From sequence record MZ501074: DNA of 64,000 nucleotides; one strand, given 5' to 3'. Shown here piece after piece: positions 1,772 to 61,287 of this stretch. Numbering within the stretch: position 1 is the first letter of the stretch; every line of letters starts with the position of its first letter. The notes beneath the pieces were generated by a model. It did not search any database and was not told the DNA's origin. It saw only the letters and a list, made by a program, of their open reading frames with translations. This DNA is from Escherichia phage HildyBeyeler. The translations under genes and the position numbers were made by a program.

Positions 1772-1966
1772 TTAGACACTTAAAATACTTCTAATCTCTT
1801 CTATATACTTATCTACTTTTTTAGCATCTATTTTACTTAGTTTTCCTATATCAAAATCAGGATCAGTCAAATATCTTGCCATAAATTTTACTTGTTTAGC
1901 TGAAAGTTGACCCTTATTCCACTTTTTAATTTTACCATAACATACCCAATATTCTTTATTCATCAT
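1772..1966 (-). CDS. hypothetical small protein
   Basis: ORF track; last gene of compact minus-strand array. Confidence 0.4.
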   Translation of the reverse strand: MMNKEYWVCYGKIKKWNKGQLSAKQVKFMARYLTDPDFDIGKLSKIDAKKVDKYIEEIRSILSV

Positions 1967-2348: not shown

Positions 2349-2357
2349 TGTGCCACC

Positions 2358-2786: not shown

Positions 2787-2788
2787 AT

Positions 2789-3295: not shown

Positions 3296-3464
3296 TTCTG
3301 TTCCTTTCTAAGAACGTATCATACTCAACCGTATCAACATATATGACACCATAGTCATCGGATTTATAGTCCATTTCCCATAGCTCACATCGATAGCACC
3401 AACTACCATCCGCCCATACAAATATATCATCGGGATGTGTATACACAGATTTAACTATGGACAT
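3282..3464 (-). CDS. hypothetical small protein
   Basis: ORF track; overlaps neighbours by a few nt. Confidence 0.4.
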   Translation of the reverse strand: MSIVKSVYTHPDDIFVWADGSWCYRCELWEMDYKSDDYGVIYVDTVEYDTFLERNRNGNK

Positions 3465-4279
3465 ATTTGTTTTCCCGGCATATAAGGTCTACCCTCTAGA
3501 TGAGCTTCTACACGAGCAATAAAACCAGGATCACTGAAAGCATCTACTGCACCTTTACTCCAGTAAGGAATACCACGATCTTCCAGTTGGTACATATCAC
3601 TACGAGTCATACCTTGATAGCCTGGTTTCGACGCTAGGGCACTATCATAGTAGTTAACTACCATAAGTTTCGCAGCAGTCCGATTAAGAACAGGGAATAG
3701 TTCCCAGTAGAAGTTAATTACTTGGTTAGAGCAACCAACTACAACGATCATATCTTGACTGGTAATACCATCAAAAATATTGTACATTTCTGCGTACGCT
3801 GGAGCATGCTCACCAAAAAAGATTACATTAGGTTTAACCCATTTATAATCATCTGGGTCAATAGAGTTATACCCAACATCAATAACCCGTTTATTACTAC
3901 TATTGTAGCTATCAGCTACAACAACCTCTTTTAAATATCCGTGAATGTGCAGAATATCACTATGTGGAACGCCAGCACGCTCAATAAGGTCATCAACGTT
4001 GGTAGTCAAGTTTACTACTTGACCCGGATATTTCTTATACCATTCACCAATACGCAAGTGTGCAAGATTAGGTTCAACAGTTTCTAACTCTTCACGCCGC
4101 TTGTTGTAAAACATATGGGTTTTATGATAAAAGTTACCACGAAAGGCGTGAATATTACATACTTCTTCTAGATCATAATCATCCCACAGTGCTTTACCAC
4201 TAGCAGTATCGGTACGAAAAGCTCGTACACCACTTTCAACGCTCAAACCTGCACCGCTAATAATAATTAATCTACGCAC
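3455..4279 (-). CDS. Sir2-family NAD-dependent protein (sirtuin-like)
   Basis: GAGLSVESG near N-terminus, TTNVD, HG and VVVGCS motifs in sirtuin order. Confidence 0.65.
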   Translation of the reverse strand: MRRLIIISGAGLSVESGVRAFRTDTASGKALWDDYDLEEVCNIHAFRGNFYHKTHMFYNKRREELETVEPNLAHLRIGEWYKKYPGQVVNLTTNVDDLIERAGVPHSDILHIHGYLKEVVVADSYNSSNKRVIDVGYNSIDPDDYKWVKPNVIFFGEHAPAYAEMYNIFDGITSQDMIVVVGCSNQVINFYWELFPVLNRTAAKLMVVNYYDSALASKPGYQGMTRSDMYQLEDRGIPYWSKGAVDAFSDPGFIARVEAHLEGRPYMPGKQICP

Positions 4280-4473
4280 TATACGATTCCTCGCTTAAAT
4301 CCTTCGATAATATTTCGGAGTAAAATTGCTTCCTCCGGGCGTACCTTCTCTTGCTTAATAAGCATATCCAATCCAGCAATACAACTAGTTACACCAGCAT
4401 TATAACCAGAGTTCCATTGCTCAATGAGCATGTTTTCTAGATTACTTTTTAGATTCTGATTCAAGAAGTCCAT
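4279..4473 (-). CDS. hypothetical protein
   Basis: ORF track; AGGAG 7 nt upstream of ATG. Confidence 0.45.
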   Translation of the reverse strand: MDFLNQNLKSNLENMLIEQWNSGYNAGVTSCIAGLDMLIKQEKVRPEEAILLRNIIEGFKRGIV

Positions 4474-4648
4474 AAAGTTTCTCCTCTAGTCCCATAATAC
4501 GATTTTCATAAGAAGCACGCAACTTTTCAATTGCCAGCGCACGCACTGTAACCTCATTAGAATTAATAGCTAACTGGGCCAGATCTTCTGTTTCCATACG
4601 TCCGTTGTAAATTAAGCGATATTTAAGGTGTTTCACATTCTTGGTCAT
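4442..4648 (-). CDS. hypothetical protein
   Basis: ORF track frame; start moved to internal ATG 4648 preceded by GGAG. Confidence 0.4.
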   Translation of the reverse strand: MTKNVKHLKYRLIYNGRMETEDLAQLAINSNEVTVRALAIEKLRASYENRIMGLEEKLYGLLESESKK

Positions 4649-5021
4649 TATTAAACTCCACTGCAACTGTTTCTAGGTCTTCGTCAAAAAAACTAGAGTA
4701 TGTATCTTTAAGATACTGTTTAATACTCCAAGTAATATCTTCGTATCCATCTGGACTACGTTGGTATACTTTTAACACTCTATTATACACAAATTCAAGA
4801 TTACATTTTACTTCATCTCTGTCTTCATCAAACAAGCAATATGGGTTATATGGCGATACATCTAGATTTGTTTCCACCCAATCACCAATAACGGTGGGGT
4901 ATCCAGCACCATCTATATGAGAGTAATCACCTGTGGCAGCAAAGACAGCCTCAGCAATATCATCCACGCCCAGATGGAAATCACCACATGTAGATTCAAC
5001 TATATAGGGCTTTAATTCCAT
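4623..5021 (-). CDS. hypothetical acidic protein
   Basis: ORF track; immediately downstream of nrdD, no radical-SAM CxxxCxxC so not NrdG. Confidence 0.5.
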   Translation of the reverse strand: MELKPYIVESTCGDFHLGVDDIAEAVFAATGDYSHIDGAGYPTVIGDWVETNLDVSPYNPYCLFDEDRDEVKCNLEFVYNRVLKVYQRSPDGYEDITWSIKQYLKDTYSSFFDEDLETVAVEFNNDQECETP

Positions 5022-5120
5022 ATCTTTCTCCTCTCAAATTTATAAATCTATTATACATAAATTTTTAGCTGAAAGCAAATAAAATAAAAGCCAGGTCGAC
5101 TAGCAACCCGGCTGATTAGC

Positions 5121-6947
5121 TTACTTAAGATTTAAGTGTTTTACTCTACCAAGAACTTCTTTTTGTTTCCCAGAATTGAAAGGCCTACTGCTAGGGGATC
5201 CCAAGTACCCGCAAACCCTACGTGTAACCTCTATTTCTTCAGACCCACAACTCGGACATACAAACCCACGTTCAGAGGCAACAGATTCACCCATATACCC
5301 ACAGTTGAAGCACTCATCAATTGGTATATTAACACCAATATAATGGCTACATTCTAGCCCCTTATCCACCACATACTCAAGAGCTTTGTGGAACTTTTTC
5401 ATTTGAGGTAGTTCCACAAATGATATATTACCACCATTAGCTATTTTGGTAAAATGAGCCTCGTACTCAAATTTAGTATCTGGGGCTACCTTCTCTCTTA
5501 CGTCCAAATGGTGACTATTAGTGAGATAGCCTTTATCTGTTAGCCAAGAATACTCTGGGAATCTACGTTCTAGTAATTTATTAAAACGATTACATAGAGA
5601 CTCACTAGGAGTAGCGTATAAGCTAAATCCAAGATTAGTCTCATTAGCTTTAACTTCGCAACGATTTTTTAGGTGAGTAAGAACTTCTTCTGTAAATTCA
5701 ATACAATCCCTATGGGTTTGTGGTAGACCAAACATTATTTGGCACATCTCATAGACCCCAATGTATCCAAGAGATACAGAAGATCTACCCTCAAAAATAG
5801 GCCATACATACTCTTCCCCATCTAAACGCACACCAAAACCACCGTGCATATAAAGAATAGGGGCTTGTTTAGCCTTAACTTTCTTCAGTCTGTTTAAGAA
5901 GAAGTCATGCGCTTCAAAAGCCTCATCCACATATTTGTCTAGAATATCCCAGAAATCTTCAAAAACCCCATCTGCCTCAGCAGCAACCATAGGTAGATTA
6001 ATAGACACTACACCTAAATTATTGCGCCCTGCAATTTCTCCGGAGGGGATAGCAGATAAAAAGCTACGACAACCCATAGGTGCTTTAAAATCACCAGTAA
6101 CAGCTACAACTTTCTCATAGCTTAAATAGTCCGGGTACATACGGGTAGCAGAACACTCAAGTGCTAGCTGTTTTATATCGTAGTTAGGATCGCCTGGATT
6201 TTTATTTAACCCTTCTTTAACTGAGAATACTAGTTTAGGGAAGATAGGGGTTGACTCAGCAGCACCTAAACCTTTAATACGGTTTTGGAGGATGGCTTTC
6301 TGAATCATCCTTTCCTCCCACTCCTGTCCTAGCCCAAAGCCAAGCGTAACAAAAGGAGTCTGTCCATTAGAGTTAAATAATGAATTAGTTTCATACTCTA
6401 GGGCTTGGAATGCGTCATAACACTCTTTTTCAGTGAGTTCAGTAGCATATACAGCAGCTTTCCTTTCATCCTTGAGCCAACGTAGACCACGACCCAGGTG
6501 CTTATCATAAGACTTTCTGACATAAGGGGCTAAAACCTCATCGATACGATCAATAGAAGTGCCACCATACTGAGCACCAGATACTTGGGCAATAATCTGA
6601 GCAGTGATTGCACATGCAGTAGTTATGGATTTAGGAGTTTCAATATTTGCATTACCAATTTTAGTACCATTCTTCAGCATGCCACCAAGGTCTACTAAAC
6701 AACAGTTAGTGTATCCCTGTGCCCTGTAATCCATATCATGGATGTGTATTTTACCTAGATTATGGGAGTCTAATAGATGTTTAGGTAATTCTTGTGCTAC
6801 TAAATACTTGTTGATTTCTCCAGCTAATAAGTCTCTTTGGGTATGGAACATCTCACTAGGCTTATTAGCATTATTATGTTGTAAGTCCTTATCAGCAGTT
6901 AGAGTGAGCAGGCCTTTGCAATTCTCAATTAATTCATTCTCTGTCAT
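5121..6947 (-). CDS. nrdD: anaerobic ribonucleoside-triphosphate reductase (class III RNR)
   Basis: 608 aa; C-terminal CxxC..CxxC zinc ribbon followed by RVCGY glycyl-radical motif. Confidence 0.9.
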   Translation of the reverse strand: MTENELIENCKGLLTLTADKDLQHNNANKPSEMFHTQRDLLAGEINKYLVAQELPKHLLDSHNLGKIHIHDMDYRAQGYTNCCLVDLGGMLKNGTKIGNANIETPKSITTACAITAQIIAQVSGAQYGGTSIDRIDEVLAPYVRKSYDKHLGRGLRWLKDERKAAVYATELTEKECYDAFQALEYETNSLFNSNGQTPFVTLGFGLGQEWEERMIQKAILQNRIKGLGAAESTPIFPKLVFSVKEGLNKNPGDPNYDIKQLALECSATRMYPDYLSYEKVVAVTGDFKAPMGCRSFLSAIPSGEIAGRNNLGVVSINLPMVAAEADGVFEDFWDILDKYVDEAFEAHDFFLNRLKKVKAKQAPILYMHGGFGVRLDGEEYVWPIFEGRSSVSLGYIGVYEMCQIMFGLPQTHRDCIEFTEEVLTHLKNRCEVKANETNLGFSLYATPSESLCNRFNKLLERRFPEYSWLTDKGYLTNSHHLDVREKVAPDTKFEYEAHFTKIANGGNISFVELPQMKKFHKALEYVVDKGLECSHYIGVNIPIDECFNCGYMGESVASERGFVCPSCGSEEIEVTRRVCGYLGSPSSRPFNSGKQKEVLGRVKHLNLK

Positions 6948-7137
6948 TGATTATTTCCTCAATAAACTTTATAGCTACTTTTGGTTCAATATTGAAGAAT
7001 TCCGTAGCGCCGTCAAAATCTTTGTACTGGCAATTCTGCTCTTTAAAGTAGTTATGGGCTAATTTTTCTATTCGAACTGCACTACTATATTCTCCAATTT
7101 CAAATACTTTAATTTTTTCGGCATTACTCTTCTCCAC
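6934..7137 (-). CDS. hypothetical protein
   Basis: ORF track; first gene of leftward operon. Confidence 0.45.
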   Translation of the reverse strand: MEKSNAEKIKVFEIGEYSSAVRIEKLAHNYFKEQNCQYKDFDGATEFFNIEPKVAIKFIEEIINDRE

Positions 7138-7318
7138 AGAATTTTCACACCTATTATACTAAACATTATCCACTATGTCAATTAAAATTTTCTTTCGCCA
7201 CCTAATACTGTAATATTCCGCGTATAAATAAATGATTATCTAATACCATACATTTCCCGTTAAAAGCAAGCAAATTTTTTATTTAAATGCAATATCATAG
7301 GCTTATTTAAAATTGTAG

Positions 7319-7347
7319 TTGCTTTTTACTGCATATACTGGTATAAT
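7319..7347 (+). promoter_or_regulatory. sigma70-type promoter (TTGCTT-17-TATAAT)
   Basis: Hexamers read directly; upstream A/T tract; precedes phoH. Confidence 0.6.
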
Positions 7348-7423
7348 ATATTTGTAAGTTGATAAACAAGATCTCTTTGTTGATCCTCTGTTAGAAGCGA
7401 AGTACACTATAGGAGTGTTATGT

Positions 7424-8176
7424 ATGGGAAAAGCACGTCAAAAAAGAGAGAACCGCAATGGTTCAAGAAAGCGTGGCAACAAATATGAGAATAACGTAAT
7501 TCAGGCTGATTTTTCTAATGATTACGCTAACCCAGTTGCTAAATCCCTAGTAGGTAAAAACCGAGAGCAAAAATCATATATCAATATGATCAAGAACAAC
7601 ACAGTGACTGTGGGTATCGGTGAGCCAGGTACAGGTAAAACCTTTATCCCGTCTGTTCTTGCAGCTCAGGAACTCGTAGACATTCACTCAGATATTGAGC
7701 AAGTGATCCTCGTACGTCCTAATGAACCTCTAGGTAAGTCTCTTGGTATGCTTCCTGGTGATCTAGCAGAAAAGCTAGAGCCTTGGTTGGAGCCAATAGC
7801 TGATGGTATGAAATGGGCCATCGGTGATCATGCCTATAGGGGATACGTCGAACGTCAGAAAATTAAATTTTTGGCTATCGAACATGCTCGTGGCAGAACT
7901 TTCAACAACTCCTATGTAATTGTCGATGAAGCTCAGAATATTTCCGTTGAGGCAATGATTTGTCTCCTAACTCGTGTAGGACAAGACTGCCGTTTAATTA
8001 TCTGCGGAGATATAGCTCAGAAAGACATTAAAGGTGACTCAGGTCTAGCACTCCTTATGGAAGTCTATGAGAAATACGAAAATGCCCCCTTCTCAATGAT
8101 CGAATTGATTGATAACGTTCGTTCTGCTGAGTCTAAAGCATTCTACGATATTTTTAAAGACATGGGGAAGGTGTAA
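7424..8176 (+). CDS. phoH: PhoH-like ATPase
   Basis: Walker A GEPGTGKTF and VDEAQN; ATG 7424 with AGGAG 8 nt upstream (track start 7415 is GTG). Confidence 0.8.
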   Translation: MGKARQKRENRNGSRKRGNKYENNVIQADFSNDYANPVAKSLVGKNREQKSYINMIKNNTVTVGIGEPGTGKTFIPSVLAAQELVDIHSDIEQVILVRPNEPLGKSLGMLPGDLAEKLEPWLEPIADGMKWAIGDHAYRGYVERQKIKFLAIEHARGRTFNNSYVIVDEAQNISVEAMICLLTRVGQDCRLIICGDIAQKDIKGDSGLALLMEVYEKYENAPFSMIELIDNVRSAESKAFYDIFKDMGKV

Positions 8177-8177
8177 T

Positions 8178-8375
8178 ATGGGAGACGTTGTACATCTACA
8201 CCGAAAAACTAAAATACATCGTACTTCACTGAGTGCTGCTAATATGATTACACGTAAGGAAGGGGAAGAAAGTCCTAAGACTACCCTAGCGTGGAAAATT
8301 GTAACCTCAAATCCAAATCGGCCCTTCAATTATAACGAACTAAGTACCTCAATAGATATTCTGCTGAGAACTTAA
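8178..8375 (+). CDS. hypothetical small protein
   Basis: ATG directly after phoH stop; in frame with track ORF 8109-8375. Confidence 0.3.
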   Translation: MGDVVHLHRKTKIHRTSLSAANMITRKEGEESPKTTLAWKIVTSNPNRPFNYNELSTSIDILLRT

Positions 8376-8519
8376 GTGGCCAAAAACTAGACTGACAACA
8401 CAGAAGGCCTGGGTATGAAAGTACTCGGGCCTTTTCTATCAGAAAATTTTATTTGCCAAATGACTGAGAATAAAGTAAACTATTTCCTAAATCCTGATAA
8501 CTATAAAAAGGAAAGCCAA

Positions 8520-10853
8520 ATGAGCCATCGCATTGAAAAGGTAATTAAACGTGACGGTACTGTAGAAGACTTTGCTCCTGAAAAACTCAATGGTTGGGCA
8601 GAGTATGGTTGCAAAACAGTTGATGTAAGTTGGTCTGCCATTACTATGGCTGCTCAAAAAACTCTGCCTAAAGGGGTTGTAGATTCCGACACTCTGATGG
8701 ATGCGTTAATTAAAGCTGCTGAAAGTCTTATCAAAGATAATCCAGCATACGACGTGCCAGCAAAGGAATTACGTCTTGCGCAGATGCGTAAACGCCTTTA
8801 TGATTCCTTTGAACCACCTTCTCTACGCTTCTTCCACGATCATATGGTTAGTGTAGGTGCATGGGAAGACATGAGTGCATGGATTACCGATGAGCAATTT
8901 GAAGCTCTGAATCAGGTTATCGACCATGATCGTGACCGTCTTTTCACTAGTGGAGGACTGAAACAATTCTTTGATAAGTATTCCCGTCGTAACATAGCCA
9001 CCGGTGAAATTTATGAAACCCCGCAGTTTGCCTACATGGGTATGGCAATGGCGATGCTATCTCAACCTAACTGGACAATTCTCGATGCAATCGACCTATA
9101 CAACGCAATGTCACTCCACAAAATCAACGTTCCTACGCCGCCACTGGTTGGTCTGCGCTCTAGTGATCGTGGATTTGCTAGTTGTTGCCTCGTTGATTCC
9201 ACTGACACATTGGATTCAATCGACACAGCCGAGCACATCGTTTTTAAAATGGTCGCAGCCAGAGCGGGAATCGGGTATCATCTTGAAAGCAGATCAATTG
9301 CTGATCCGGTGCGAAATGGGGCATTCCCGCATTCCGGAAAACTGCCATATTATCGACACATTGACCGCTCAGTAAAGGCCAACACTCAGCAAACTCGTGG
9401 TGGTTCTGCTACAGTGTCTTATCCATACTTTGATCCTGAAATCATTCAGTTGATGCAGGTTAAGCAACAACGTGCTACAGACGAGAATAAAATCGATAAG
9501 ATGGATTATTCTCTGAGCTTCAACAATCTTTTGTTAAAACGTTATCTTAAAAATGAAGATATTACGCTAATGTCATACTTCTATGCTCCGGAAGTTCATG
9601 AAGCGTTTTATAGTGATGACGAGGCTAAATTTGAAGAAATCTATGTGGCAGCGGAGAAACGTGTGGCATCTCTTACAAAGATCGACCACGAAGGAAAAAC
9701 AGTTCCAGCAGCTCCTAAAGTCTCTGCAAAAGAAATCCTAGATACTTGGCTGCGTATCCGAATGGAAACAGGACGTATGTATGCCCACCACATTGGGGAA
9801 TCTAATCGTCACGGTAACTTCCTTGATCCGATCCGTATGACAAACCTTTGTGTTGAAATTACTCAGCCTACACGCCCGTTCCATCATATCACGGAACTGT
9901 ATAAAACGAAAGAGCAGCTTGACCAAATGAAGCCGGAGGATATTGGGGAAGTATCTCTATGTAACTTAGGTGGTGTTGTACTAGGACGCATGGAATCTCT
10001 AGCTGAGTGGGAAAAAACTTGCTACATCCTCCTGAAATTCGTTGATACAATTATTGAAATTCAGGATTATCCGTTCCCAACTATGGAATATACGGCTAAG
10101 AAACGTCGTAATGTTGGTATTGGCCTGATGAACGCAGCAGGTGCAATGGCAGCAGAAGGTCTGGCTTATGAAGGTATTGAAGCCCGTAACTGGATTCACC
10201 GTGAGGCTGAAAAACTGTCTTACTTCCTGCATAAAGCCTCTGTACGCCTAGCTAAAGAACAGGGTGCATGTGAGTGGTTTGATCGTACTAAACCATCTAA
10301 AGGAATTCTGGTAATCGACACATACAAGAAAACTGTTGATGAGCTGGTATCCGTAGGTCTAGAAATGGATTGGGAATCTCTGCGTGCAGATATTCTGAAA
10401 TACGGTATGCGTAACTCTGTTCTGACTGCGCAGATGCCTGGAGAAAGTTCCTCTGTACTATTGGGTGTTACCAACTCAATTGAGCCACCTCGTAGGATTG
10501 TATCTATCAAGGGTAGTGCAGTGAATAAAGTAATTGCAATTGCTCCGGGTGCAACTGATTGGGATACTCTCATGAGCTATAAACTGGCCTATGATATTGA
10601 TCGCACTGAGTGGATCAAATGGAACGCCGTTTACCAAAAATTCTTGAGCCAGTCATCAAGTTTCCAGATGTATTATGATTACTCTAAATTCGAGAATGAA
10701 ATCATTCCTGGCCCAGTAGTAGTTCGTGACTTTATGACTGCGGTTAAGTATGGTATAAAGACCTGGTATTATGCTAACTTTAACACTGCGAATGGTGGAG
10801 GAGCTGGTGAAGAGGCGGCAACAGGTTGTGCATCAGGCGGTTGTCAGTTATAA
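8520..10853 (+). CDS. nrdA: ribonucleotide reductase large subunit (class Ia)
   Basis: ATP-cone KRDGTVEDF, NLCVEI active-site loop, C-terminal CASGGC tail; ATG 8520 has AAGGAAA RBS (track start 8415). Confidence 0.9.
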   Translation: MSHRIEKVIKRDGTVEDFAPEKLNGWAEYGCKTVDVSWSAITMAAQKTLPKGVVDSDTLMDALIKAAESLIKDNPAYDVPAKELRLAQMRKRLYDSFEPPSLRFFHDHMVSVGAWEDMSAWITDEQFEALNQVIDHDRDRLFTSGGLKQFFDKYSRRNIATGEIYETPQFAYMGMAMAMLSQPNWTILDAIDLYNAMSLHKINVPTPPLVGLRSSDRGFASCCLVDSTDTLDSIDTAEHIVFKMVAARAGIGYHLESRSIADPVRNGAFPHSGKLPYYRHIDRSVKANTQQTRGGSATVSYPYFDPEIIQLMQVKQQRATDENKIDKMDYSLSFNNLLLKRYLKNEDITLMSYFYAPEVHEAFYSDDEAKFEEIYVAAEKRVASLTKIDHEGKTVPAAPKVSAKEILDTWLRIRMETGRMYAHHIGESNRHGNFLDPIRMTNLCVEITQPTRPFHHITELYKTKEQLDQMKPEDIGEVSLCNLGGVVLGRMESLAEWEKTCYILLKFVDTIIEIQDYPFPTMEYTAKKRRNVGIGLMNAAGAMAAEGLAYEGIEARNWIHREAEKLSYFLHKASVRLAKEQGACEWFDRTKPSKGILVIDTYKKTVDELVSVGLEMDWESLRADILKYGMRNSVLTAQMPGESSSVLLGVTNSIEPPRRIVSIKGSAVNKVIAIAPGATDWDTLMSYKLAYDIDRTEWIKWNAVYQKFLSQSSSFQMYYDYSKFENEIIPGPVVVRDFMTAVKYGIKTWYYANFNTANGGGAGEEAATGCASGGCQL

Positions 10854-47849: not shown

Positions 47850-48035
47850 ATGGAAACTCTTTTTCTTTTAATGCTTGTAGGTTCCCTGCTAGTCATATTA
47901 GCACTTCTACTAATCTGCAATATTCTTAATAATAAGAATTTAGAGTTAAAGTGTGAGAACCAAATCCTTAATCGTGAACTTAAACAATATAATCTAGCAG
48001 CTCATAAACTGCTAGACAAACTGGAGAATAAATAA
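47850..48035 (+). CDS. hypothetical membrane protein
   Basis: ORF track; TM helix. Confidence 0.35.
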   Translation: METLFLLMLVGSLLVILALLLICNILNNKNLELKCENQILNRELKQYNLAAHKLLDKLENK

Positions 48036-48643
48036 TGTTTACACAACAACCTATTCAAGTAGTACCAGATCATGAACTGAATACATGGGATTATAGCTTT
48101 AAAGATTTAACTGCTACTGTACAATTCAAATCTATGAAGCTAACCTTTGCACACACTAATATTAAAGCATGTAAAGATTTTGAAGGTAGGCTCAACAACG
48201 CTCGTAAGATTTTTGGTACGGCTCGGATTCCAGCTGATAACCTTATTAACGCATTAATAGATGCGGGCTATAAACTCGTGAAGGCTGAGGTGAACCGCCC
48301 TAGTACTCCAGTAACTGTTAGTGATCCGTGGCAGTCAGGGCCAATTATAAGGTGGAACAGTCCTAAAATAACGTCGGATTTGCACAATGTTCCATGCGGT
48401 GGTGCGCTGTCGTCTAATCAGTCCTATCGAGTTGGGGAAGATTATGGGCCTTCTGCACAGTTGAAACATACTCAAGAAGCTTTTGAATCTGACATGAAAA
48501 GCGTAGCACCTGCAGATGCTGGAGTTTCTAGGAGTTCTGTTTGTACTATTCATTTTAATAATCCTAGTAAACATGGAAGTCTAGAAGATGCTATTATGGG
48601 GGCGTTGGGAGCTGCTCTTAATGAAGATAAGAGAGGTAATTAA
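48035..48643 (+). CDS. hypothetical protein
   Basis: ORF track; ATGA overlaps. Confidence 0.45.
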   Translation: MFTQQPIQVVPDHELNTWDYSFKDLTATVQFKSMKLTFAHTNIKACKDFEGRLNNARKIFGTARIPADNLINALIDAGYKLVKAEVNRPSTPVTVSDPWQSGPIIRWNSPKITSDLHNVPCGGALSSNQSYRVGEDYGPSAQLKHTQEAFESDMKSVAPADAGVSRSSVCTIHFNNPSKHGSLEDAIMGALGAALNEDKRGN

Positions 48644-49368
48644 TGAGTATTAAAAAGAATTTAGCAGAGATTATTAAATTAGCTAGAGCTTGTAATGGAA
48701 AATGTGTTTCTCAACTTAATGAACTAGAGGCACATGCAGTAGCGTTTTGTGCAGAGTTTTATCCTGCATATATTAACGCTAGTGGACAGCCGAAATATAA
48801 TAAAGATGCAGAAGAAGTTACGTTAGCTCCTTCGTATATTAGTATACGTCGTCTGATTCAAACTGTTGACCCTAATATTAAAGGATTTTCAGCAGATTCA
48901 TTCCATGTTTTTGCGGATAAAGAACTCCCACATTTTAAAGAAGGAAGTGCAAAGACAGCCCTAGAATGTTATCCTAATATTTTGATGATTCCACCTAAGC
49001 AATGTAAGTATGATCATCTTCCTAGACTTACAAAGAAAGTAGAACCACCTTATTCTTCTCTATCTGAATTAAAGCTAGGAATTGTATCTACACTTGCGCA
49101 GGTTCATCTAAGTATAGTTGACGACTCAACAACATCTAATCCAGTCTTAGATGCTGCACATTATGAAATTTTACGTGACCCTGAACAGGCTAGAAAAGTT
49201 GCGAAGTCTGTTAAGTTTGACATCTCAACAATTCTTGATACGATGCAAGATACGAGACCTAGAGGAAGTGTAGATTATTCTGCGCTAAATTCCGAGTCAT
49301 CTTACCTAGCAACATTCCTTTTCATGGCATCGAAGGGAATCATACTCAAAGTCAATCACGATGTATAA
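48643..49368 (+). CDS. hypothetical protein
   Basis: ORF track; last gene before repeat region. Confidence 0.45.
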   Translation: MSIKKNLAEIIKLARACNGKCVSQLNELEAHAVAFCAEFYPAYINASGQPKYNKDAEEVTLAPSYISIRRLIQTVDPNIKGFSADSFHVFADKELPHFKEGSAKTALECYPNILMIPPKQCKYDHLPRLTKKVEPPYSSLSELKLGIVSTLAQVHLSIVDDSTTSNPVLDAAHYEILRDPEQARKVAKSVKFDISTILDTMQDTRPRGSVDYSALNSESSYLATFLFMASKGIILKVNHDV

Positions 49369-49385
49369 ACGTTAACAAAATCTTC

Positions 49386-49414
49386 TTGACATTATTTGAG
49401 CTGTATGTTATAAT
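49386..49414 (+). promoter_or_regulatory. consensus sigma70 promoter TTGACA-17-TATAAT
   Basis: Both hexamers perfect, 17-bp spacer; no ORF downstream. Confidence 0.7.
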
Positions 49415-49767
49415 AATCTCATAGATTAAAAACATCAACTTGTTTTTACCTCTAGGCCGTAGATTTACATCATTCCTCGTAGGAAAACACTTGATGACGG
49501 TTCTGTTCGCAGGTTCTCGTCAATTGTTCTTCCTCCCCGAGACTCAGGAGGATGTATCAAATCGCACGCGCCTAGAGGGGCTAACTCTCATGAAATGGGG
49601 GTATATTAACTTTTAAATAACTGATAAATATTTAAAGGCAATATCTGTGTTCAAGATGATACACCTGTTGCCGCTCATCTGCTAGGATGGCACAACACTT
49701 TCTTCTAGACTCCTAAGTTTCTAGGAAATTGATAAGCACAAATTCTAGAGATCGCACAAAAATATTC

Positions 49768-50546
49768 ATCGGATTTGCACATATTCTAGGAAATTGATAA
49801 GTACAAAAATATTCATCGGATTTGCACATATTCTAGGGCAGTTTCTCTCAAACGTTACACATACTAGGCGGTTAATATAGGGCGGTTATAGGGAGGGCGG
49901 TTATTTCTAGGAGACATTTTTTGAAAACACATTTCTGGATTTTACTGTCGGATTTGCACACTGCATTTCTAGAAATTTATGGTCGGATTTGCACAAACGC
50001 CTAAGTTTTTAGGAACATATAATCTCTTGAAAATGGCAGCATTATTTCGGGCCGAAGGCCCATGATTGCCTGAGTTTTTAGAGCCACAGGAATTTTCACT
50101 TGTCAAGCTATTTTGCCCCATTTTGCTAATAAAATTTTACTTTTTCTGCACCTATCTCAAATTTCCCCAAATTATCTCAACTCTTCCCCAAAACCCCGCA
50201 AATCAGGTGCTCCGCACCAATCCTGCGCCCACACCATTCTAGCCTCCCAAATTTCTCTCGCTCTCTCATCTTCTCCTCAAACCTATACAATCACACACCC
50301 TCTCATCGAAGTCACAAAAATTTCATCGGATTCGCACAAATAAACCCATGTCGGATTTGCACATATTCTAGCTAATTCCACAGGATTGATGCGCAGCATC
50401 GGATTGCTGGAGTTTTTGGGAAAATTCGTCGTCGGATTCGCACATCACAAAAGTTTTTAGGGTCGGATTTGCACACTACCAAAAATTGTCGGATTCGCAC
50501 ATACACGCCCGCACGTAACACCCGTGGAGCAATGTCGGATTTGCAC
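49768..50546 (+). repeat. ten direct copies of 13-bp iteron TCGGATT(T/C)GCACA
   Basis: Copies start at 49768, 49815, 49947, 49982, 50325, 50350, 50431, 50462, 50488, 50534, all same orientation. Confidence 0.85.
49866..49902 (+). repeat. three direct copies of GGCGGTTA at 14-15 bp spacing
   Basis: Copies at 49866, 49880, 49895. Confidence 0.7.
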
Positions 50547-50575
50547 AAAAGCGCAGGGCAATTGCCCTGCGACTT

Positions 50576-50800
50576 TGAATGAGAATCATTATCATTTAAG
50601 AAGTGGAATGCAAATGATAATTATTCTCATTTAAGAAGTGGAATGATTCTCATTTAATAAGTGGAATGCAAATGATAATTATTCTCATTTAAGAAGTGGA
50701 ATGAGAACTATTCAAGAAGTGAAACGATTCTCATTAAAGAAGCGAAACGATTCTCATCCTAGAAAGGGAATGCAAATGATAATGATTCTCATTTAAAAAC
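50576..50800 (+). repeat. tandem array of about 24-bp units (GATTCTCATTTAAGAAGTGGAATG and variants)
   Basis: About eight degenerate contiguous units read directly. Confidence 0.8.
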
Positions 50801-50822
50801 GGAAGTGAGAAACACTGTTATT

Positions 50823-50936
50823 TAAGTTATCCACAGACTTATTAACAGCACGATTTGACTTGACAGAATCCTAGCCATTTTGAGGCGTTATCCACAGACT
50901 TATCCACAGCTTATTCTACTGTATAAATATACAGTA
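50823..50936 (+). promoter_or_regulatory. left inverted repeat with three perfect DnaA boxes and 20-bp palindrome
   Basis: TTATCCACA at 50827, 50888, 50900; TACTGTATAAATATACAGTA at 50917-50936. Confidence 0.8.
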
Positions 50937-51191
50937 TTCCTACGCAGTGAATAATTCTAATATAGGCCTAAAACGTCCTGAATCGCATTCTAGCGCGTTT
51001 TATTTTGGCGGGGATACTAAAACAAGGGCAAAACTGGAGGAGGCTTAGAAATTAGTTAGCTCGCTAACGATCACACAAGGCGACACGTAACACCCTAATC
51101 ATTAGCAGGCTAACCATCGCGGGCGCGGTCAAATGAGAATCATTCTCATTTGAGGATTGGGGGCACTTCCTGATAATTGCCCCCGTGATTA

Positions 51192-51386
51192 TTAGTCCGG
51201 TAATTGATGCGTGATCTTCTCCTCTTCCCCGTAGGAATCGACTAAATGCTGATAATAACCATCATGATCATAAATGACTTTATCATATTCGCCCAGCTCG
51301 ACCGCTTGCCGGTTTTCCGGAGTATCGGGCACATAAAAAACGTCAACCATTGTGGTAGTTTTGGTCACAATAATTTTATCGCTCAT
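51192..51386 (-). CDS. hypothetical protein
   Basis: ORF track; last gene of leftward operon. Confidence 0.4.
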   Translation of the reverse strand: MSDKIIVTKTTTMVDVFYVPDTPENRQAVELGEYDKVIYDHDGYYQHLVDSYGEEEKITHQLPD

Positions 51387-51401: not shown

Positions 51402-51683
51402 TTAGTTGACTATCTCAAAGATAGCGTTCTCAAGTGTCGCCCTTAGGATCCCATCGCGCCCTACTACGGAATACTTGAGATCAGGTATTTTGTAACGCTC
51501 AATTGCTTTGAGTAATTGATCTTTTTGGGCTTTATATTTTTGCCCTTCTCGCGCTATCGTGTCGCCTTCGGCTTTAATGCAAATCAGTGTAACCATAATA
51601 ATCCCCCTAGTAAATATATTTTTGCCAATAGCGGCGAACGTTATCGCCACCAGCGGAATCATTAGCTGCCTTACTATTACCAA
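51402..51683 (-). CDS. hypothetical protein (start uncertain)
   Basis: ORF track; possible internal start at MVTLICIK. Confidence 0.4.
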   Translation of the reverse strand: MVIVRQLMIPLVAITFAAIGKNIFTRGIIMVTLICIKAEGDTIAREGQKYKAQKDQLLKAIERYKIPDLKYSVVGRDGILRATLENAIFEIVN

Positions 51684-52341: not shown

Positions 52342-52550
52342 AGTACCCCACGAAACGCAGCGTAAAAGGTGGCAAAGTGTCTAACCGTTTCAGCTATCAC
52401 GTTGCCGCGCTTATCGAATTTTTTCTCGGTAACACGAAAGGCGTTTTTATTCCGTGCTACATATTCGATTTTACAATCTTCCCGCTCGAACGTGTTAACG
52501 TCCACCAGCTTAAAGCCTTTGGAACGAGCAAGGGAAACATTACGAATCAT
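52338..52550 (-). CDS. hypothetical protein
   Basis: ORF track. Confidence 0.4.
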   Translation of the reverse strand: MIRNVSLARSKGFKLVDVNTFEREDCKIEYVARNKNAFRVTEKKFDKRGNVIAETVRHFATFYAAFRGVL

Positions 52551-54580: not shown

Positions 54581-55247
54581 CTCATTAATTTATATGTATA
54601 TTATATAATATGAAATAGTTAGTTGGCTAATGAGATTTTACGGGATTAGTAGTCTGCTAATGGTTCAGGCTGTTACAATCCACCAGCACGATTATCATTC
54701 TAGTAATTATTAGTCTGCTATCTTTCTAATACACAACAACAAATAAAAGTCAATTAATTAATTTTATAAAATAACTCATTTAGTCTTGATTTTTAAAAGT
54801 CAATACCTTTTACAACTATTTTTCAATTTTGCTTTTATTAAATATTTGTTAAGTCGAAAATAAGCCGCCTAAAACGCCCTAGAAAGCGGTAAAATTTTCA
54901 GGTATCCCATCATAAGGGGATAGCCCGTTTATCGTCACCTGATGGATTCTAGAAAAATCAAGTAGGGCAAGGCAAATATAAGTGAAAAAATTACTTGCCT
55001 ATCTGCTATGTTTTGTGGTATCCGCGCGCCCGTTTCCTTTAAACTTGGGCAATCGCCGGACACCTTGCTTTCTTTACATTTCTTTACAAAAATAAGGTTG
55101 CGCCATTTTTGGTATTTGCTATTATTTACCTCGTAGGGCGGCAATGACGAACTACACGGCGGGAAGTTTACCGCCGCGCTCTTTAAAAATTGGGTATATC
55201 TTAAAGTCTATCGGCGGCAAACTTATACATTATAAGGAATCGCAGAT

Positions 55248-60140: not shown

Positions 60141-60272
60141 CAAGGTGAAACAGTTAGCATGATAATAGTAACGGGGGTGGCGGTTAGCAGACTAAGTATT
60201 TTCGCCCAGCCCACTGCACCCACCCACGCGTACGTAATCCAAAGAATTTGGCAAAAGTCATTTTAGCGCTAA

Positions 60273-60812
60273 TTACCTGTTTAATTGGGCAACGTCTGGT
60301 ATACTTCCTTTGAACATCTCCTGTATTGCAAAGTCACCATGAAATGTCCTTCTTAGTAAATTTGCATAATTTACGGCATCTTCTAATTCGCTATAGGGAA
60401 AGTACTTAGTAGTGCCCCTTATCAGCCCCTGTTTATCGTGTAATCTTACCATCCACTTCTGAAGTTCTTTATGCCATGTAACATTTAGATAGCCTGATGA
60501 TGCTCTTGAGATTCTGCCATTATGATTATTCTCTGTAATTGAAGCCTCTCTTAAATTTGACCATCTATTATTTAGTTTATTCCTATCTATGTGGTCTACA
60601 CATTCCTCTGGCCATCTATTCTCCATAATAACAAAAGCTACTTGATGTGCATAAGCTTTAAACCCTCGATACTTGAGCTGCCTATATCCCCTATTTAAAG
60701 TACCTGCTTCTTTACCCTTACGATTGCCGCTTTTCCAGGTAAAAACTCCAGTTTCGGGGTCATAAGCAAATACTTCTTGTATTTCCTGTATATTTAGATT
60801 ATTCTTCACCAT
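60273..60812 (-). CDS. HNH homing endonuclease
   Basis: HQVAFVIMENRWPEECVDHIDRN...NRWSNLREAS HNH signature. Confidence 0.65.
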   Translation of the reverse strand: MVKNNLNIQEIQEVFAYDPETGVFTWKSGNRKGKEAGTLNRGYRQLKYRGFKAYAHQVAFVIMENRWPEECVDHIDRNKLNNRWSNLREASITENNHNGRISRASSGYLNVTWHKELQKWMVRLHDKQGLIRGTTKYFPYSELEDAVNYANLLRRTFHGDFAIQEMFKGSIPDVAQLNR

Positions 60813-60854
60813 GAACCTCCATGTGTAATCTTATGAAATTTGGCAAAAGTCAAA

Positions 60855-61100
60855 TTAGTGCATAGAAGGGTCATCAAACCTGTGTTCTGGTCTAAACTCA
60901 CGGAATCTCTTCCGCGACGCCCGAGAACCATCATTCCACTCCCGTTCAAACTCCGCACGTTTCTCATCGAACTTCCGCTCCCTTTCCGCAATCTCCCGCG
61001 ATACTTCCGCAATATATTTACGATGCCTGTCGATAGCCGCAGTCATCCCGAAAACTCCCGCAAGTACCCCGATAATAAAAGCAATTATAATACTAAACAT
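60855..61100 (-). CDS. mini membrane protein (array member a)
   Basis: ORF track; N-terminal TM IIIAFIIGVLAGVFG then charged tail. Confidence 0.45.
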   Translation of the reverse strand: MFSIIIAFIIGVLAGVFGMTAAIDRHRKYIAEVSREIAERERKFDEKRAEFEREWNDGSRASRKRFREFRPEHRFDDPSMH

Positions 61101-61287
61101 CTAATTCCCTCTCAATTTGCAGAATACGGGTGCTACCACAACGTTGCAGTAGTACTAGCTTTTCTAGAGCAACTTGTTGTTGTTTTACTTGAGCTTCTAG
61201 AGTTTTTAGGCGAACATACGCGTTATAAGAAACAATGAAAGTTGCCCAGACTAGTATTACTATTAGTGTAGCTACTATTTCCATCAT
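61093..61287 (-). CDS. mini membrane protein (array member b)
   Basis: ORF track; TM helix then coiled coil. Confidence 0.45.
   Translation of the reverse strand: MMEIVATLIVILVWATFIVSYNAYVRLKTLEAQVKQQQVALEKLVLLQRCGSTRILQIERELDV

What the first reader, a model, noticed from the sequence alone, without database searches (positions are those of the whole stretch)
50100..50320. Strongly strand-asymmetric pyrimidine-rich tract inside the repeat region
About 220 bp of the plus strand is almost purine-free in runs (CCCCAAA, CTCTCTC, CACACACCC motifs). The track ORF 50113-50343 here is probably a low-complexity artefact. Such tracts can form triplex or single-stranded structures.
Basis: seen in the sequence. 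Interest (0 to 1): 0.4.

Follow-up and report, generated by a model that had tools for sequence, protein, structure and literature searches.

The report
G-poor tract at T5-like genome end
A 220-bp non-coding stretch that almost lacks G on one strand lies about 20 bp inside the physical end of a T5-like phage chromosome, is kept G-poor by selection across the phage family, and most likely helps the phage cut and package its DNA ends (and perhaps stops transcription there), rather than forming a triplex or encoding a protein.

Summary
The asymmetry is real, but it is G-versus-C, not purine-versus-pyrimidine. Positions 50100-50320 are G 7%, C 36%, A 27%, T 30%, the strongest C>G stretch in the 64-kb window on either strand.

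The window is a T5-like phage (Demerecviridae). The tract starts about 20 bp inside the inner end of the long terminal repeat. By homology to T5, that boundary (50080|50081) is the physical right end of the mature genome.

ORF 50113-50343 is an artefact: relatives carry frameshifts and stops, and there is no codon periodicity. Triplex and G4 structures are not supported.

Across 14 relatives the central part is only 70% identical, yet its length (135-137 nt) and composition are fixed. A<->G changes are almost absent, which indicates selection against G. The same C-rich tract, with no sequence identity, recurs next to the conserved core in four other genera.

Internally there are about 10 phased CCC-AAA-TTTT units (predicted strongly bent), a covarying mini-hairpin, and a second G-free arm. 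TCGGATTYGCACA iterons flank the whole.

Best reading (0.4): a bent DNA element of the packaging and end-maturation site. Main rival (0.3): a Rho-loading (rut) site that terminates transcripts from a conserved consensus promoter upstream. The two are compatible.

The parts
49386..49414 (+). Perfect sigma-70 promoter (TTGACA-17-TATAAT with an extended -10 TG) firing toward the tract.
   Evidence: 12/12 match. Conserved in the alignment A2. A perfect or near-perfect equivalent is present in Proteus RP7, Vibrio D260 and Sugarland.
49421..49612 (+). Candidate rod-shaped non-coding RNA made from that promoter. It is context for the tract, not part of it.
   Evidence: RNA fold -66.5 kcal/mol, z = -5.3. 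The same architecture appears in the divergent T5 version (z = -6.2) and in Sugarland (z = -2.3). No Rfam match.
49769..49995 (+). Four TCGGATTTGCACA iterons (Wang and Davison's 'direct repeat D'), outside the terminal repeat.
   Evidence: 11 exact copies in the window, all on the plus strand, where about 2 matches at up to 2 mismatches are expected by chance. AY587007 annotation.
50029..50138 (.). Most conserved core. It holds hairpin (i) GGGCC-GAA-GGCCC (50049-50061), GATTGCCTGAGTTTTT, the terminal-repeat boundary and inferred genome end at 50080|50081, CCACAGGAAT and TTGTCAAGC.
   Evidence: 95.5% mean pairwise identity in 14 phages. It is the only part that still aligns to Klebsiella Sugarland-type phages. 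T5 TR end 10219 and the right end of record AY587007 both map here. Elw and EscoHU1 annotate the same boundary.
50100..50323 (+). The G-poor, C-rich tract (the finding).
   Evidence: Composition and length are conserved while the sequence drifts. Selection against G.
50106..50205 (+). Arm 1: about 10 head-to-tail units of roughly 10 bp, CCC-AAA-TTTT. It includes Wang's direct repeat A copies (50153-50171 and 50173-50191). Predicted to be strongly curved.
   Evidence: Periodicity of 9.75-10.0 nt in all 14 relatives and in Sugarland. Phase table and rows of 10. TRF finds period 10 and period 20. Predicted curvature averages 41 deg per 30 bp against a window value of 18+-10, peaking at 59 deg at 50125.
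50206..50218 (.). Hairpin (iii), GGTGC-TCC-GCACC, the only cluster of G in the tract. It is an inverted copy of the module at 50381-50422.
   Evidence: It covaries (GGTGC/GCACC versus GGCGT/ACGCC). Over the three hairpins together, 94% of cells pair against 41% or less when the partners are slid. Inverted repeat I1. It is the only robust element in the ssDNA folds.
50219..50323 (+). Arm 2: the most extreme C>G segment (50228-50305 has C=35, G=2). Its last 49 nt, CAAACC..ACACAATCACACACCCTC..ATCGAAGTCACAAAAAT, are 92% conserved.
   Evidence: The 10-nt phasing is weaker here.
50326..50547 (+). Six TCGGATTYGCACA iterons inside the repeat. Hairpin (ii) GATGC-GCA-GCATC (50388-50400) and GATTGCTGGAGTTTTT (50402-50417) lie among them.
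   Evidence: The HNH insertion point in phage NR01 lies at about 50388.
50544..50571 (+). Homologue of the T5 major single-strand nick site, CACAAAA|GCGCAGG (nick at 50550|50551 on the plus strand), followed by the palindrome CGCAGGGCAATTGCCCTGCG.
   Evidence: T5 annotation places the nick at 9748/9749 on the minus strand and as 'nick 5, 99.7%'. Sequence identity. The motif is unique in the window.
50576..50910 (.). Injection-stop region proper: Fur-box-like repeats (50576-50805) and DnaA boxes TTATCCACA (50827, 50888, 50900). Context only.
   Evidence: T5 annotates the iss at 9140-10149. Davison 2020.

Best explanation
The tract is non-coding, cis-acting DNA. It forms the last ~240 bp of the T5-type chromosome. 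It starts about 20 bp inside the point where the terminal repeat ends, which in the right-hand repeat copy is the physical genome end.

I propose that it is the architectural part of the packaging-initiation and end-maturation site. In this model, terminase with its partners cuts concatemers in the conserved core (50080|50081). The adjacent ~100 bp of phased CCC-AAA-TTTT units form an intrinsically bent segment that binds protein on one face. A small conserved hairpin and a second G-free arm then lead into an array of TCGGATTYGCACA iterons, the presumed binding sites.

Because the 10-bp units lie head to tail, all their C runs fall on one strand. That strand is also the nicked strand, the one that ends 5' at the right terminus, and the one that runs 5'->3' in the inferred direction of packaging.

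The same G-free strand makes any RNA entering the repeat from the conserved upstream promoter unstructured and C-rich. The element probably therefore also acts as a Rho-loading insulator that keeps RNA polymerase off the maturation site.

Shown: location, conservation pattern, selection against G, phasing, hairpin covariation, iteron layout.

Inferred: that terminase or its partners bind here, the direction of packaging, and Rho action.
For: - Locus identity: 446-525 T5-like phage records match at 80-93%. The T5 annotation gives LTR 1-10219, iss 9140-10149 and the major nick at 9748/9749.
- Terminus: two independent T5 records, plus Elw and EscoHU1, place the repeat end or genome end at window 50080|50081. 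Record I14 ends there. This lies inside the most conserved block (95.5% identity), the only block that still aligns to Sugarland-type phages.
- Constraint on form, not sequence: positions 50139-50274 are 70% identical (minimum 57%), yet length stays at 135-137 nt, C at 0.36-0.41 and G at 0.07-0.12.
- Selection against G: the arms vary as much as the flanks (92 of 194 columns). G makes up 10% of variable states against 20-21% in the flanks. A<->G changes number 15 against 193 C<->T; in the flanks the counts are 170 and 209.
- Phasing and bending: 9.75-10.0-nt periodicity of C, A/T and A in all 14 relatives and Sugarland. The unit is CCCAAATTTT. Predicted curvature is at or above the 99.9th percentile of the window.
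- Family-wide: C-rich, G-poor tracts on the same strand flank the conserved 'AATTTTT..GTCAAGC' core in Sugarland, Proteus RP7 (C79/G16 in 220 nt), Aeromonas AhSzq-1 and Vibrio D260, with no sequence identity in the tracts. The repeat-side tract shows 10-nt C phasing in three of these four.
- Layout: direct iterons lie on both sides of the cut. The left genome end has almost no non-coding DNA, as expected if initiation signals sit at the right end.
- Contiguity: in NR01 an HNH gene inserted at about 50388 leaves the core, the tract and the first two iterons contiguous.
Against: - No binding, cleavage or packaging data exist for this segment. I found no paper that discusses it beyond listing repeats.
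- Bending needs only A/T-versus-G/C phasing. It does not by itself require all the C to be on one strand, so the head-to-tail-unit argument is an inference.
- Arm 2, the most G-depleted part, is only weakly phased.
- RP7 lacks the 10-nt phasing, and curvature in the distant genera reaches only about the 97th percentile.
- Other genera also carry C-rich tracts outside the repeat that are not phased. That fits an RNA-level role better.
- The termini of this particular phage were not measured. The boundary is mapped by homology, and some records annotate other boundaries (Kenya-K38 +28 nt, pork29 +207 nt, Sugarland at the nick motif).
- The curvature values come from my own script with recalled wedge-model parameters.
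- The 14 aligned phages are related, so they are not independent samples.
Confidence: 0.4

Rival explanations
1. The tract is an RNA-level element: a Rho-utilisation (rut) site. Transcripts from the consensus promoter at 49386-49414, and read-through from the early operon that ends at 49368, are untranslated. On reaching the tract they become C-rich, G-poor and unstructured. Rho loads and terminates at downstream pause hairpins (50388-50400, 50552-50571). This insulates the terminal repeat and the convergent pre-early genes. It is compatible with the DNA-level role above.
For: - It is the top C>G 'bubble' of the window: C=35 and G=2 in 78 nt.
- The plus-strand RNA or DNA is nearly structure-free: -5 to -11 kcal/mol per 120 nt against -20 to -47 in the flanks, and -9.1 kcal/mol for 249 nt.
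- There is no conserved ORF or RBS.
- A perfect promoter upstream in the right orientation is conserved in Tequintavirus/Epseptimavirus, Sugarlandvirus, Novosibvirus and Vibrio D260.
- It directly explains one-strand G avoidance.
- It explains the unphased C-rich tracts upstream of the core in other genera.
- Two C-rich arms around a small hairpin resemble lambda tR1 rutA-boxB-rutB (recalled knowledge).
Against: - It does not explain the 10-bp DNA phasing, the AnTn units or the predicted curvature.
- It does not explain the fixed length or why the tract abuts the genome end.
- The rod-like RNA may already terminate near 49620, about 480 nt upstream.
- There are no data that the tract is transcribed, or on whether Rho acts here during T5 infection.
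Confidence: 0.3
2. The tract belongs to the two-step injection machinery, either the injection stop or the restart. For example, it could be the DNA that sits in the tail or portal while transfer is paused, or the target of the A1/A2 proteins that Davison predicted to lie to the right of the stop signal.
For: - It lies within Davison's 'Repeat Region 3' and just beyond the mapped shear point at about T5 9618.
- T5's iss annotation (9140-10149) overlaps the tract.
- The region is conserved in all T5-like phages. The fixed length could serve as a ruler.
Against: - The tract lies 370-600 bp beyond the shear point, so it has not entered the cell during the pause.
- A 560-bp HNH gene inserted between the tract and the nick, Fur-like repeats and DnaA boxes is tolerated in NR01, SHSML-45 and MET_P1_179_112. 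This argues against a fixed distance to the stop elements.
- Nothing in this model predicts strand asymmetry.
Confidence: 0.1
3. The tract gives telomere-like end protection or guides recombination. After 5' resection of the right end, the exposed 3' strand is G-rich and C-poor and cannot fold except for one hairpin. That would favour annealing with another repeat copy to build concatemers, or modulate RecBCD.
For: - The G-rich strand runs 5'->3' toward the physical end, as in telomeres, and the literal motif CCCCAAAACCCC occurs at 50186-50197.
- Both strands are almost structure-free as ssDNA.
- On the minus strand, hairpin (iii) has a GNA-type triloop (GGA, GAA or GCA), which is known to be very stable in DNA (recalled knowledge).
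- All three Chi sites of the window, and both in the T5 LTR, are oriented for RecBCD entering from this end.
- An exact Chi complement sits in or beside the tract in RP7 and D260.
Against: - It does not explain the C-rich tracts outside the repeat in other genera.
- The repeats are degenerate, not tandem telomeric units.
- T5-like tracts have only Chi-like sequences, not exact Chi.
- T5 is reported to neutralise RecBCD by pre-early functions.
Confidence: 0.07
4. The asymmetry is a neutral by-product of a local strand-biased mutation process, for example frequent single-strandedness, with no function.
For: The sequence of the central part drifts freely, at 57-70% identity.
Against: - Cytosine deamination of an exposed strand would raise A or T, not double C. 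A is below the window mean (27% against 32%) while C is doubled.
- The length is fixed to within 1 nt.
- The 10-nt phase is retained.
- The same composition recurs at the same place in five genera without sequence identity.
Confidence: 0.03
5. One reading: a homopurine-homopyrimidine tract that forms a triplex (H-DNA), or alternatively a G-quadruplex or i-motif.
For: Strong strand asymmetry. Sugarland and two Epseptimaviruses contain one canonical C-run pattern.
Against: - A is 27%. The longest pyrimidine run is 10 nt, and the mirror repeat arms are 6 nt.
- No canonical G4/i-motif pattern occurs in the window or in 11 of its 13 aligned relatives.
Confidence: 0.02
6. The tract encodes a small protein (ORF 50113-50343, or the longer ORFs annotated in pork29 and phage 1-19).
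For: Stop-free plus-strand frames of up to 82 codons occur in every relative. A few GenBank records annotate a CDS here.
Against: - Frames are broken by 1-2-nt indels and stops in most relatives.
- Variability is equal at all codon phases.
- There is no Pfam hit and only a non-significant PHROG hit at E = 0.08.
- Annotations disagree in strand and frame, or are absent.
- Long ORFs are expected where G is rare.
Confidence: 0.01

Closest known systems
T5 'Repeat Region 3', the untranslated right end of the left terminal repeat that holds the injection stop signal (Heusterspreute 1987; Wang 2005; Davison 2015 and 2020).
   Same: It is the same locus by direct homology, 87-93% DNA identity. It has the same direct repeats D (TCGGATTYGCACA) and A (inside the tract), the same major nick site, palindromes, Fur-like repeats and DnaA boxes.
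   Different: The accessible literature lists repeats and palindromes and focuses on the DnaA-box part. I found no description of the G depletion, the 10-bp phasing and curvature, the covarying hairpins, or their conservation without sequence identity in other genera. The tract lies beyond the first-step shear point, at the very end of the repeat.
Packaging sites with an architectural bend: lambda cos (cosQ-cosN-cosB, with the IHF-bent I1 site between the R sites) and SPP1 pac (pacL-pacC-pacR, with intrinsically bent DNA). Recalled knowledge.
   Same: A cut site is flanked by repeated protein-binding sites. Bent DNA lies on the side that enters the capsid first. The accessory region tolerates sequence change.
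   Different: There is no sequence or protein-level link tested here. T5 makes 10-kb direct terminal repeats rather than cohesive ends or headful cuts. One-strand G exclusion is not a described property of cosB or pac.
Rho-dependent terminators and rut sites, such as lambda tR1 (rutA-boxB-rutB) and trp t'. Recalled knowledge.
   Same: C far exceeds G over more than 80 nt. The segment is unstructured, untranslated and downstream of a strong promoter, with two C-rich arms around a small hairpin and pause hairpins downstream.
   Different: It has DNA-helical (10-bp) phasing and a fixed length, and it sits exactly at a genome terminus. Rho dependence is untested.
The T7 concatemer junction: the CJ pause/termination signal for T7 RNA polymerase, the phiOR promoter, and the SRL/SRR short repeat arrays beside the terminal repeat. 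Recalled knowledge.
   Same: Both are direct-terminal-repeat phages. A promoter points at the junction, a hairpin plus T-run ends where the DNA end maps, and arrays of short one-strand repeats adjoin the repeat.
   Different: T5-like phages use host RNA polymerase. T7's repeat is 160 bp against about 10 kb here. There is no sequence similarity, and transcription-coupled maturation is not shown for T5.
Telomeric C-strand/G-strand repeats.
   Same: The G-rich strand runs 5'->3' to the chromosome end, and the motif CCCCAAAACCCC is present.
   Different: The units are degenerate and phased rather than exact tandem repeats. Nothing is known of an overhang or telomerase-like maintenance, and the phage solves end replication with terminal repeats.

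Membership tests
T5-type terminal-repeat end / 'Repeat Region 3' locus | DNA homology to the T5 LTR inner end, with the same order of elements (repeat D, nick site, palindromes, DnaA boxes). | tested here: met
T5-type terminal-repeat end / 'Repeat Region 3' locus | The position coincides with the experimentally assigned repeat boundary and genome end. | tested here: met
   Met by homology only: T5 (two records), Elw, EscoHU1 and the I14 record end all map to window 50080|50081. The termini of this phage itself cannot be measured from a collapsed sequence.
Phage packaging (cos/pac) accessory element | Adjacent to the terminase cut site, on the side packaged first. | tested here: inconclusive
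   Adjacency to the mapped end is met. That the right end is packaged first is inferred from the left end being injected first, not shown.
Phage packaging (cos/pac) accessory element | Intrinsic or protein-induced DNA bend. | tested here: met
   Prediction only: 10-bp AnTn/C phasing and wedge-model curvature at or above the 99.9th percentile. No gel data.
Phage packaging (cos/pac) accessory element | Binding by the small terminase subunit, and requirement for packaging. | not testable with these tools
   Needs EMSA or footprinting and packaging assays.
Rho-dependent terminator (rut site) | At least about 80 nt with C far exceeding G and little secondary structure in the RNA. | tested here: met
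Rho-dependent terminator (rut site) | Lies on an untranslated transcript downstream of an active promoter. | tested here: inconclusive
   A consensus promoter is present and conserved and there is no conserved ORF. Whether transcripts reach the tract is unknown, because a structured RNA may end near 49620.
Rho-dependent terminator (rut site) | Rho-dependent, bicyclomycin-sensitive 3' ends. | not testable with these tools
   No transcript-end data for T5-like phages were found.
H-DNA / intramolecular triplex | An uninterrupted homopurine-homopyrimidine mirror repeat of about 15 bp or more. | tested here: not met
   Longest pyrimidine run is 10 nt; mirror arms are 6 nt; A is 27%.
G-quadruplex / i-motif | Four runs of at least 3 G or C with loops of 7-12 nt or less, conserved. 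| tested here: not met
   Absent from the window and from 11 of its 13 aligned relatives.
Protein-coding gene | A conserved reading frame, codon-phase substitution pattern, or family match. | tested here: not met
Known RNA family (Rfam) | Covariance-model match. | tested here: not met
   No credible hit in 49300-51300 at E<=1. The two chance-level hits lie at 50538-50654, outside the tract.

The most novel reading that the evidence does not exclude
T5-like phages may couple genome-end maturation to host transcription, as T7 does at its concatemer junction but using E. coli RNA polymerase and Rho.

The proposed sequence is as follows. A family-wide consensus promoter makes a rod-shaped RNA. Read-through polymerases then meet a hairpin plus T-run whose end coincides with the DNA terminus (50080|50081). 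Immediately beyond lies a bent, G-free tract that loads Rho on the RNA and terminase or nickase on the DNA.

The G-free strand would be the strand that the packaging motor and the T5 nicking enzyme track. That would explain why nicks, iterons, C runs and Chi orientation all share one polarity.
Probability: 0.1. Interest if true: 0.75.

Novelty: new member of a known kind. Interest (0 to 1): 0.4.

Why it matters
Two questions about T5 have stayed open since the 1960s-80s: how its 10-kb terminal repeats and exact ends are generated, and what the elaborate non-coding DNA at the repeat's inner end does.

This analysis splits that DNA into testable modules:
- a cut-site core;
- a phased, bent, G-free segment held by selection on composition, length and phase rather than on sequence;
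- three paralogous mini-hairpins;
- iteron arrays.

The layout is shared across at least five Demerecviridae genera.

It gives concrete constructs for testing: strand inversion, phase scrambling, and G-for-C swaps. These can separate a DNA-level role (terminase binding or bending) from an RNA-level role (Rho).

It also has a practical use for annotation. ORFs called in this tract are artefacts. A PhageTerm 'terminus' that falls on the nick motif, as in Sugarland, is probably a nick and not the genome end.

Tried and rejected
- Triplex/H-DNA and G4/i-motif: tested by run-length, mirror-repeat and motif scans and rejected.
- Protein coding: rejected.
- Known RNA family: no credible Rfam hit.
- A 'ruler' linking the tract to the injection-stop elements: weakened by the HNH insertions tolerated between them.
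- Deamination or mutation-bias origin: rejected on base composition.
- A minus-strand promoter using the conserved TTGACA (the reverse complement of TGTCAA in the core): no acceptable -10 in T5-likes or RP7, judged by reading the sequence.
- Other strongly G-poor or C-rich stretches in the window (1768-1990 and 60897-61116): both are coding on the minus strand, so they are not comparable.
Single-sequence folds were used instead.
- An IMG/VR pattern scan with the core returned only already-known isolates.
- Vibrio phage HNL01 has an A1 homologue but is organised differently, and its top C>G stretch is coding.
- The start of the VPT02 record is not the physical end, so it gave no independent terminus.
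- Davison 2015 (Bacteriophage 5:e1086500) could not be retrieved. Wang 2005 and Heusterspreute 1987 are not in the library.
- Several fetched loci were not copied to the Python sandbox, so some relatives were handled through alignments only.
Full report
**What is there.** Positions 50100-50320 of the plus strand contain A60 C79 G16 T66. G is 7.2% against a window mean of 20.2%, and C is 35.7% against 18.9%. A and T are near average. The asymmetry is therefore C versus G (GC skew -0.68), not purine versus pyrimidine. At 78, 150 and 220 nt it is the strongest C>G stretch of the whole 64-kb window on either strand. Positions 50228-50305 have C=35 and G=2, and at 220 nt the excess is about 5.4 sd from the mean. 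The two next-best candidates are ordinary minus-strand coding sequence. The longest pure pyrimidine run is 10 nt, and the best pyrimidine mirror repeat has 6-nt arms.

**Where it is.** The window is a T5-like phage of the Demerecviridae. The 2-kb non-coding region 49369-51191 matches 446 phage records at about 87-90% identity, and a 631-bp query around the tract matches 525. The window plus strand is the minus strand of T5. T5 annotates the left terminal repeat as 1-10219, the injection stop signal as 9140-10149, and the major single-strand nick at 9748/9749 on the minus strand.

T5 base 10219 corresponds to window 50081. A second, independent T5 record ends at the same place; the reverse complement of its right end reads GATCCACAGAAATTTTCAC.... 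Phages Elw and EscoHU1 annotate the same boundary, and record I14 stops at 50080. The tract therefore begins about 20 bp inside the inner end of the terminal repeat. In the right-hand repeat copy it is the last ~240 bp of the virion DNA. The G-poor strand is the strand that carries the T5 nicks and the one that ends 5' at that terminus.

**Not a gene.** In 14 aligned Tequintavirus and Epseptimavirus genomes, the frame of ORF 50113-50343 is broken by 1-2-nt indels and by in-frame stops in most relatives. Variable columns fall equally on the three codon phases (36/42/37 of 77). No frame is kept on either strand. Pfam gives nothing and PHROGs only a non-significant hit at E = 0.08. GenBank annotators call nothing here, or mutually inconsistent ORFs. 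Long plus-strand ORFs are expected where TAG and TGA cannot occur.

**Conservation pattern.**
- The block 50029-50138, which contains the boundary, is 95.5% identical. It is the only piece that still aligns to Klebsiella Sugarland-type phages.
- The central part of the tract (50139-50274) is only 70% identical (minimum 57%). Its length nevertheless stays at 135-137 nt, its C at 0.36-0.41 and its G at 0.07-0.12.
- The last 49 nt are 92% identical.
- The G-free arms vary as often as the flanks (92 of 194 columns). G makes up only 10% of the states in variable columns against 20-21% in the flanks. A<->G differences are almost absent: 15 against 193 C<->T, while the flanks show 170 against 209.

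This is the signature of selection against G on this strand, not of drift. Deamination of an exposed strand would not double C.

**The same feature without sequence identity.** Four other genera show the same layout: Sugarlandvirus, Novosibvirus RP7, Shenzhenvirus AhSzq-1 and Vibrio phage D260. The order of elements is:
1. a strong sigma-70 promoter;
2. a structured region;
3. C-rich, G-poor tract(s) on the same strand around a conserved 'AATTTTT..GTCAAGC' core;
4. iterons;
5. the nick motif R|GCGCAGG followed by a palindrome;
6. Fur-box-like repeats;
7. DnaA boxes;
8. the pre-early genes.

In RP7 the tract is the top C>G stretch of 23.7 kb, with C79 and G16 in 220 nt, the same numbers as here.

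**Internal anatomy.**
- Arm 1 (50106-50205), written in rows of ten, is a head-to-tail array of about ten degenerate units, CCC-AAA-TTTT. TRF finds period 10 (CAAATTTCCC) and period 20, the latter being Wang's 'direct repeat A'.
- The strongest periodicity of C, of A/T and of A is 9.75-10.0 nt in all 14 relatives and in Sugarland. The same holds for the repeat-side tracts of AhSzq-1 and D260, but not for RP7 or for the tracts outside the repeat.
- Phased AnTn blocks are the classic recipe for bent DNA. My wedge-model script gives 41 deg per 30 bp over 50100-50200, against 18+-10 for the window. The peak is 59 deg at 50125, where the window maximum is 60.8. This script is home-made and uses recalled parameters.
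- The only cluster of G is a 5-bp-stem, 3-nt-loop hairpin at 50206-50218. It covaries: GGTGC/GCACC in Tequintaviruses and GGCGT/ACGCC in most Epseptimaviruses.
- This hairpin is an inverted copy of a module at 50381-50422, which contains another covarying hairpin (50388-50400). A third, invariant hairpin (50049-50061) sits just outside the boundary.
- Over the three hairpins together, 94% of cells pair against 41% or less when the partners are slid, and six pairs show double-sided changes.
- Several of the loops are GNA triloops closed by C-G, which from recalled knowledge are unusually stable in single-stranded DNA.
- Apart from the hairpin, both strands are almost structure-free: -9.1 and -10.8 kcal/mol for 249 nt.
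- Eleven exact TCGGATTYGCACA iterons, all on the plus strand, lie outside the tract: four close on the unique-sequence side, six on the repeat side, and one further away at 48374.

**Best explanation (0.4).** A non-coding tract that abuts the mapped terminus, sits between a highly conserved core and direct iteron arrays, and keeps its length, helical phase and composition but not its sequence, looks like the architectural part of a packaging-initiation and end-maturation site. Lambda cosB with its IHF bend and SPP1 pacL/pacR with bent DNA are comparable cases (recalled knowledge).

The left end of T5 is injected first, so the right end should be packaged first (inference). The left terminus has almost no non-coding DNA. 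Head-to-tail asymmetric 10-bp units would place every C run on one strand. An HNH gene inserted at about 50388 in NR01 and others leaves the core, tract and first iterons contiguous but separates them from the injection-stop elements. That fits an end-proximal module and argues against a fixed-distance link to the stop signal.

**Main rival (0.3, compatible with the above).** A perfect, extended -10 consensus promoter at 49386-49414 points at the tract. It is conserved in every genus examined. It drives a rod-shaped RNA of about 190 nt (z = -5.3; T5 -6.2; Sugarland -2.3). Any read-through RNA is untranslated and, in the tract, extremely C-rich, G-poor and unstructured. That is a textbook Rho-loading site, and pause hairpins lie downstream. 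This explains one-strand G avoidance most simply, and it also explains the unphased C-rich tracts outside the repeat in other genera. It does not explain the DNA phasing, the fixed length or the position at the terminus. A dual role, a bent terminase platform that is also a transcription insulator, is plausible.

**Other readings.**
- A role in injection stop or restart: 0.1.
- Telomere-like end protection or annealing: 0.07. The G-rich strand runs 5'->3' to the end. All Chi sites of the window, and both in the T5 LTR, face this end.
- Neutral mutational bias: 0.03.
- Triplex or G4: 0.02.
- Protein coding: 0.01.

**Literature.** Davison (bioRxiv 10.1101/866236) and the T5 record annotations list the repeats, palindromes, DnaA boxes and nick. 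Later papers only repeat this description. I found nothing on the G depletion, phasing, hairpin covariation or cross-genus conservation of this segment. Wang 2005, Heusterspreute 1987 and Davison 2015 could not be read.

**Limits.**
- The termini of this phage are inferred by homology.
- The aligned phages are related and are not independent samples.
- The curvature is a prediction.
- Packaging direction, terminase binding, transcription through the tract and Rho action are all inferred.

Noticed in passing
window 49386-49612 (+): A perfect consensus sigma-70 promoter is followed by a ~190-nt rod-shaped RNA candidate: a 5' hairpin, a long irregular stem and a 3' hairpin. Primary sequence differs strongly between phage groups, but the architecture and low folding energies recur (z = -5.3, -6.2 and -2.3). 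There is no Rfam match. Some records annotate small ORFs on it.
   Followed up: partly
window 51647-51654, 52502-52509, 54680-54687 (all on the minus strand); L002 8127 and 8689: These are the only three Chi sites (GCTGGTGG) in 64 kb, where 0.86 are expected. All lie in the terminal repeat within 4.6 kb of its inner end. All are oriented to be read by RecBCD entering from that end, the right genome terminus. T5 has two in the same orientation. An exact Chi complement (CCACCAGC) also sits in or beside the C-rich tract of Proteus RP7 (L033, about 4190) and Vibrio D260 (L036, about 5046).
   Followed up: partly
L008 1857 (Sugarland record position 10138): The PhageTerm-predicted repeat boundary of Klebsiella phage Sugarland falls exactly on the conserved nick motif CACATAA|GCGCAGG. 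It does not fall on the conserved terminus core, which lies 280-350 bp away (L008 1500-1580). A natural nick was probably scored as a genome end.
   Followed up: partly
window ~50388; L014 1352-1891: In Salmonella phage NR01 an HNH homing endonuclease gene with its own promoter is inserted into this non-coding region, and annotated homing-endonuclease genes lie at the split matches in SHSML-45 and MET_P1_179_112. In NR01 it replaces hairpin module (ii) and one iteron.
   Followed up: yes
window 50049-50061, 50206-50218, 50388-50400: There are three paralogous 5-bp-stem, 3-nt-loop hairpins. Shared flanking words (CCACAGGAWT, GATTGCYKGAGTTTTT) occur in rearranged order. The loops are mostly of GNA type. 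A hairpin with a GAA or GTA triloop also precedes the core in Vibrio D260 and Aeromonas AhSzq-1.
   Followed up: partly
window 49867-49905: Three copies of (A/G)GGCGGTTAT. The same word recurs at the equivalent place in Sugarland, RP7 and AhSzq-1, so it is probably a binding site conserved across the family.
   Followed up: no
window 50576-50805 and 51130-51160: An array of repeats and palindromes resembles the Fur box (GATAATGATTCTCATT). It lies between the nick site and the DnaA boxes and is conserved in all the genera looked at.
   Followed up: no
window 50101-50106 (minus strand): The conserved core word TGTCAA reads as a perfect -35 hexamer (TTGACA) on the minus strand in several genera. 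No usable -10 follows it.
   Followed up: partly
window 60239-60862: An HNH-like ORF (60273-60812, minus strand) is bracketed by a direct repeat AATTTGGCAAAAGTCA. It lies just beyond the outer end of the terminal repeat (about 60220), where the window stops being collinear with T5.
   Followed up: no
window 48374-48386: One further exact TCGGATTTGCACA iteron lies inside a coding region (ORF 48035-48643), about 1.4 kb from the main arrays.
   Followed up: no
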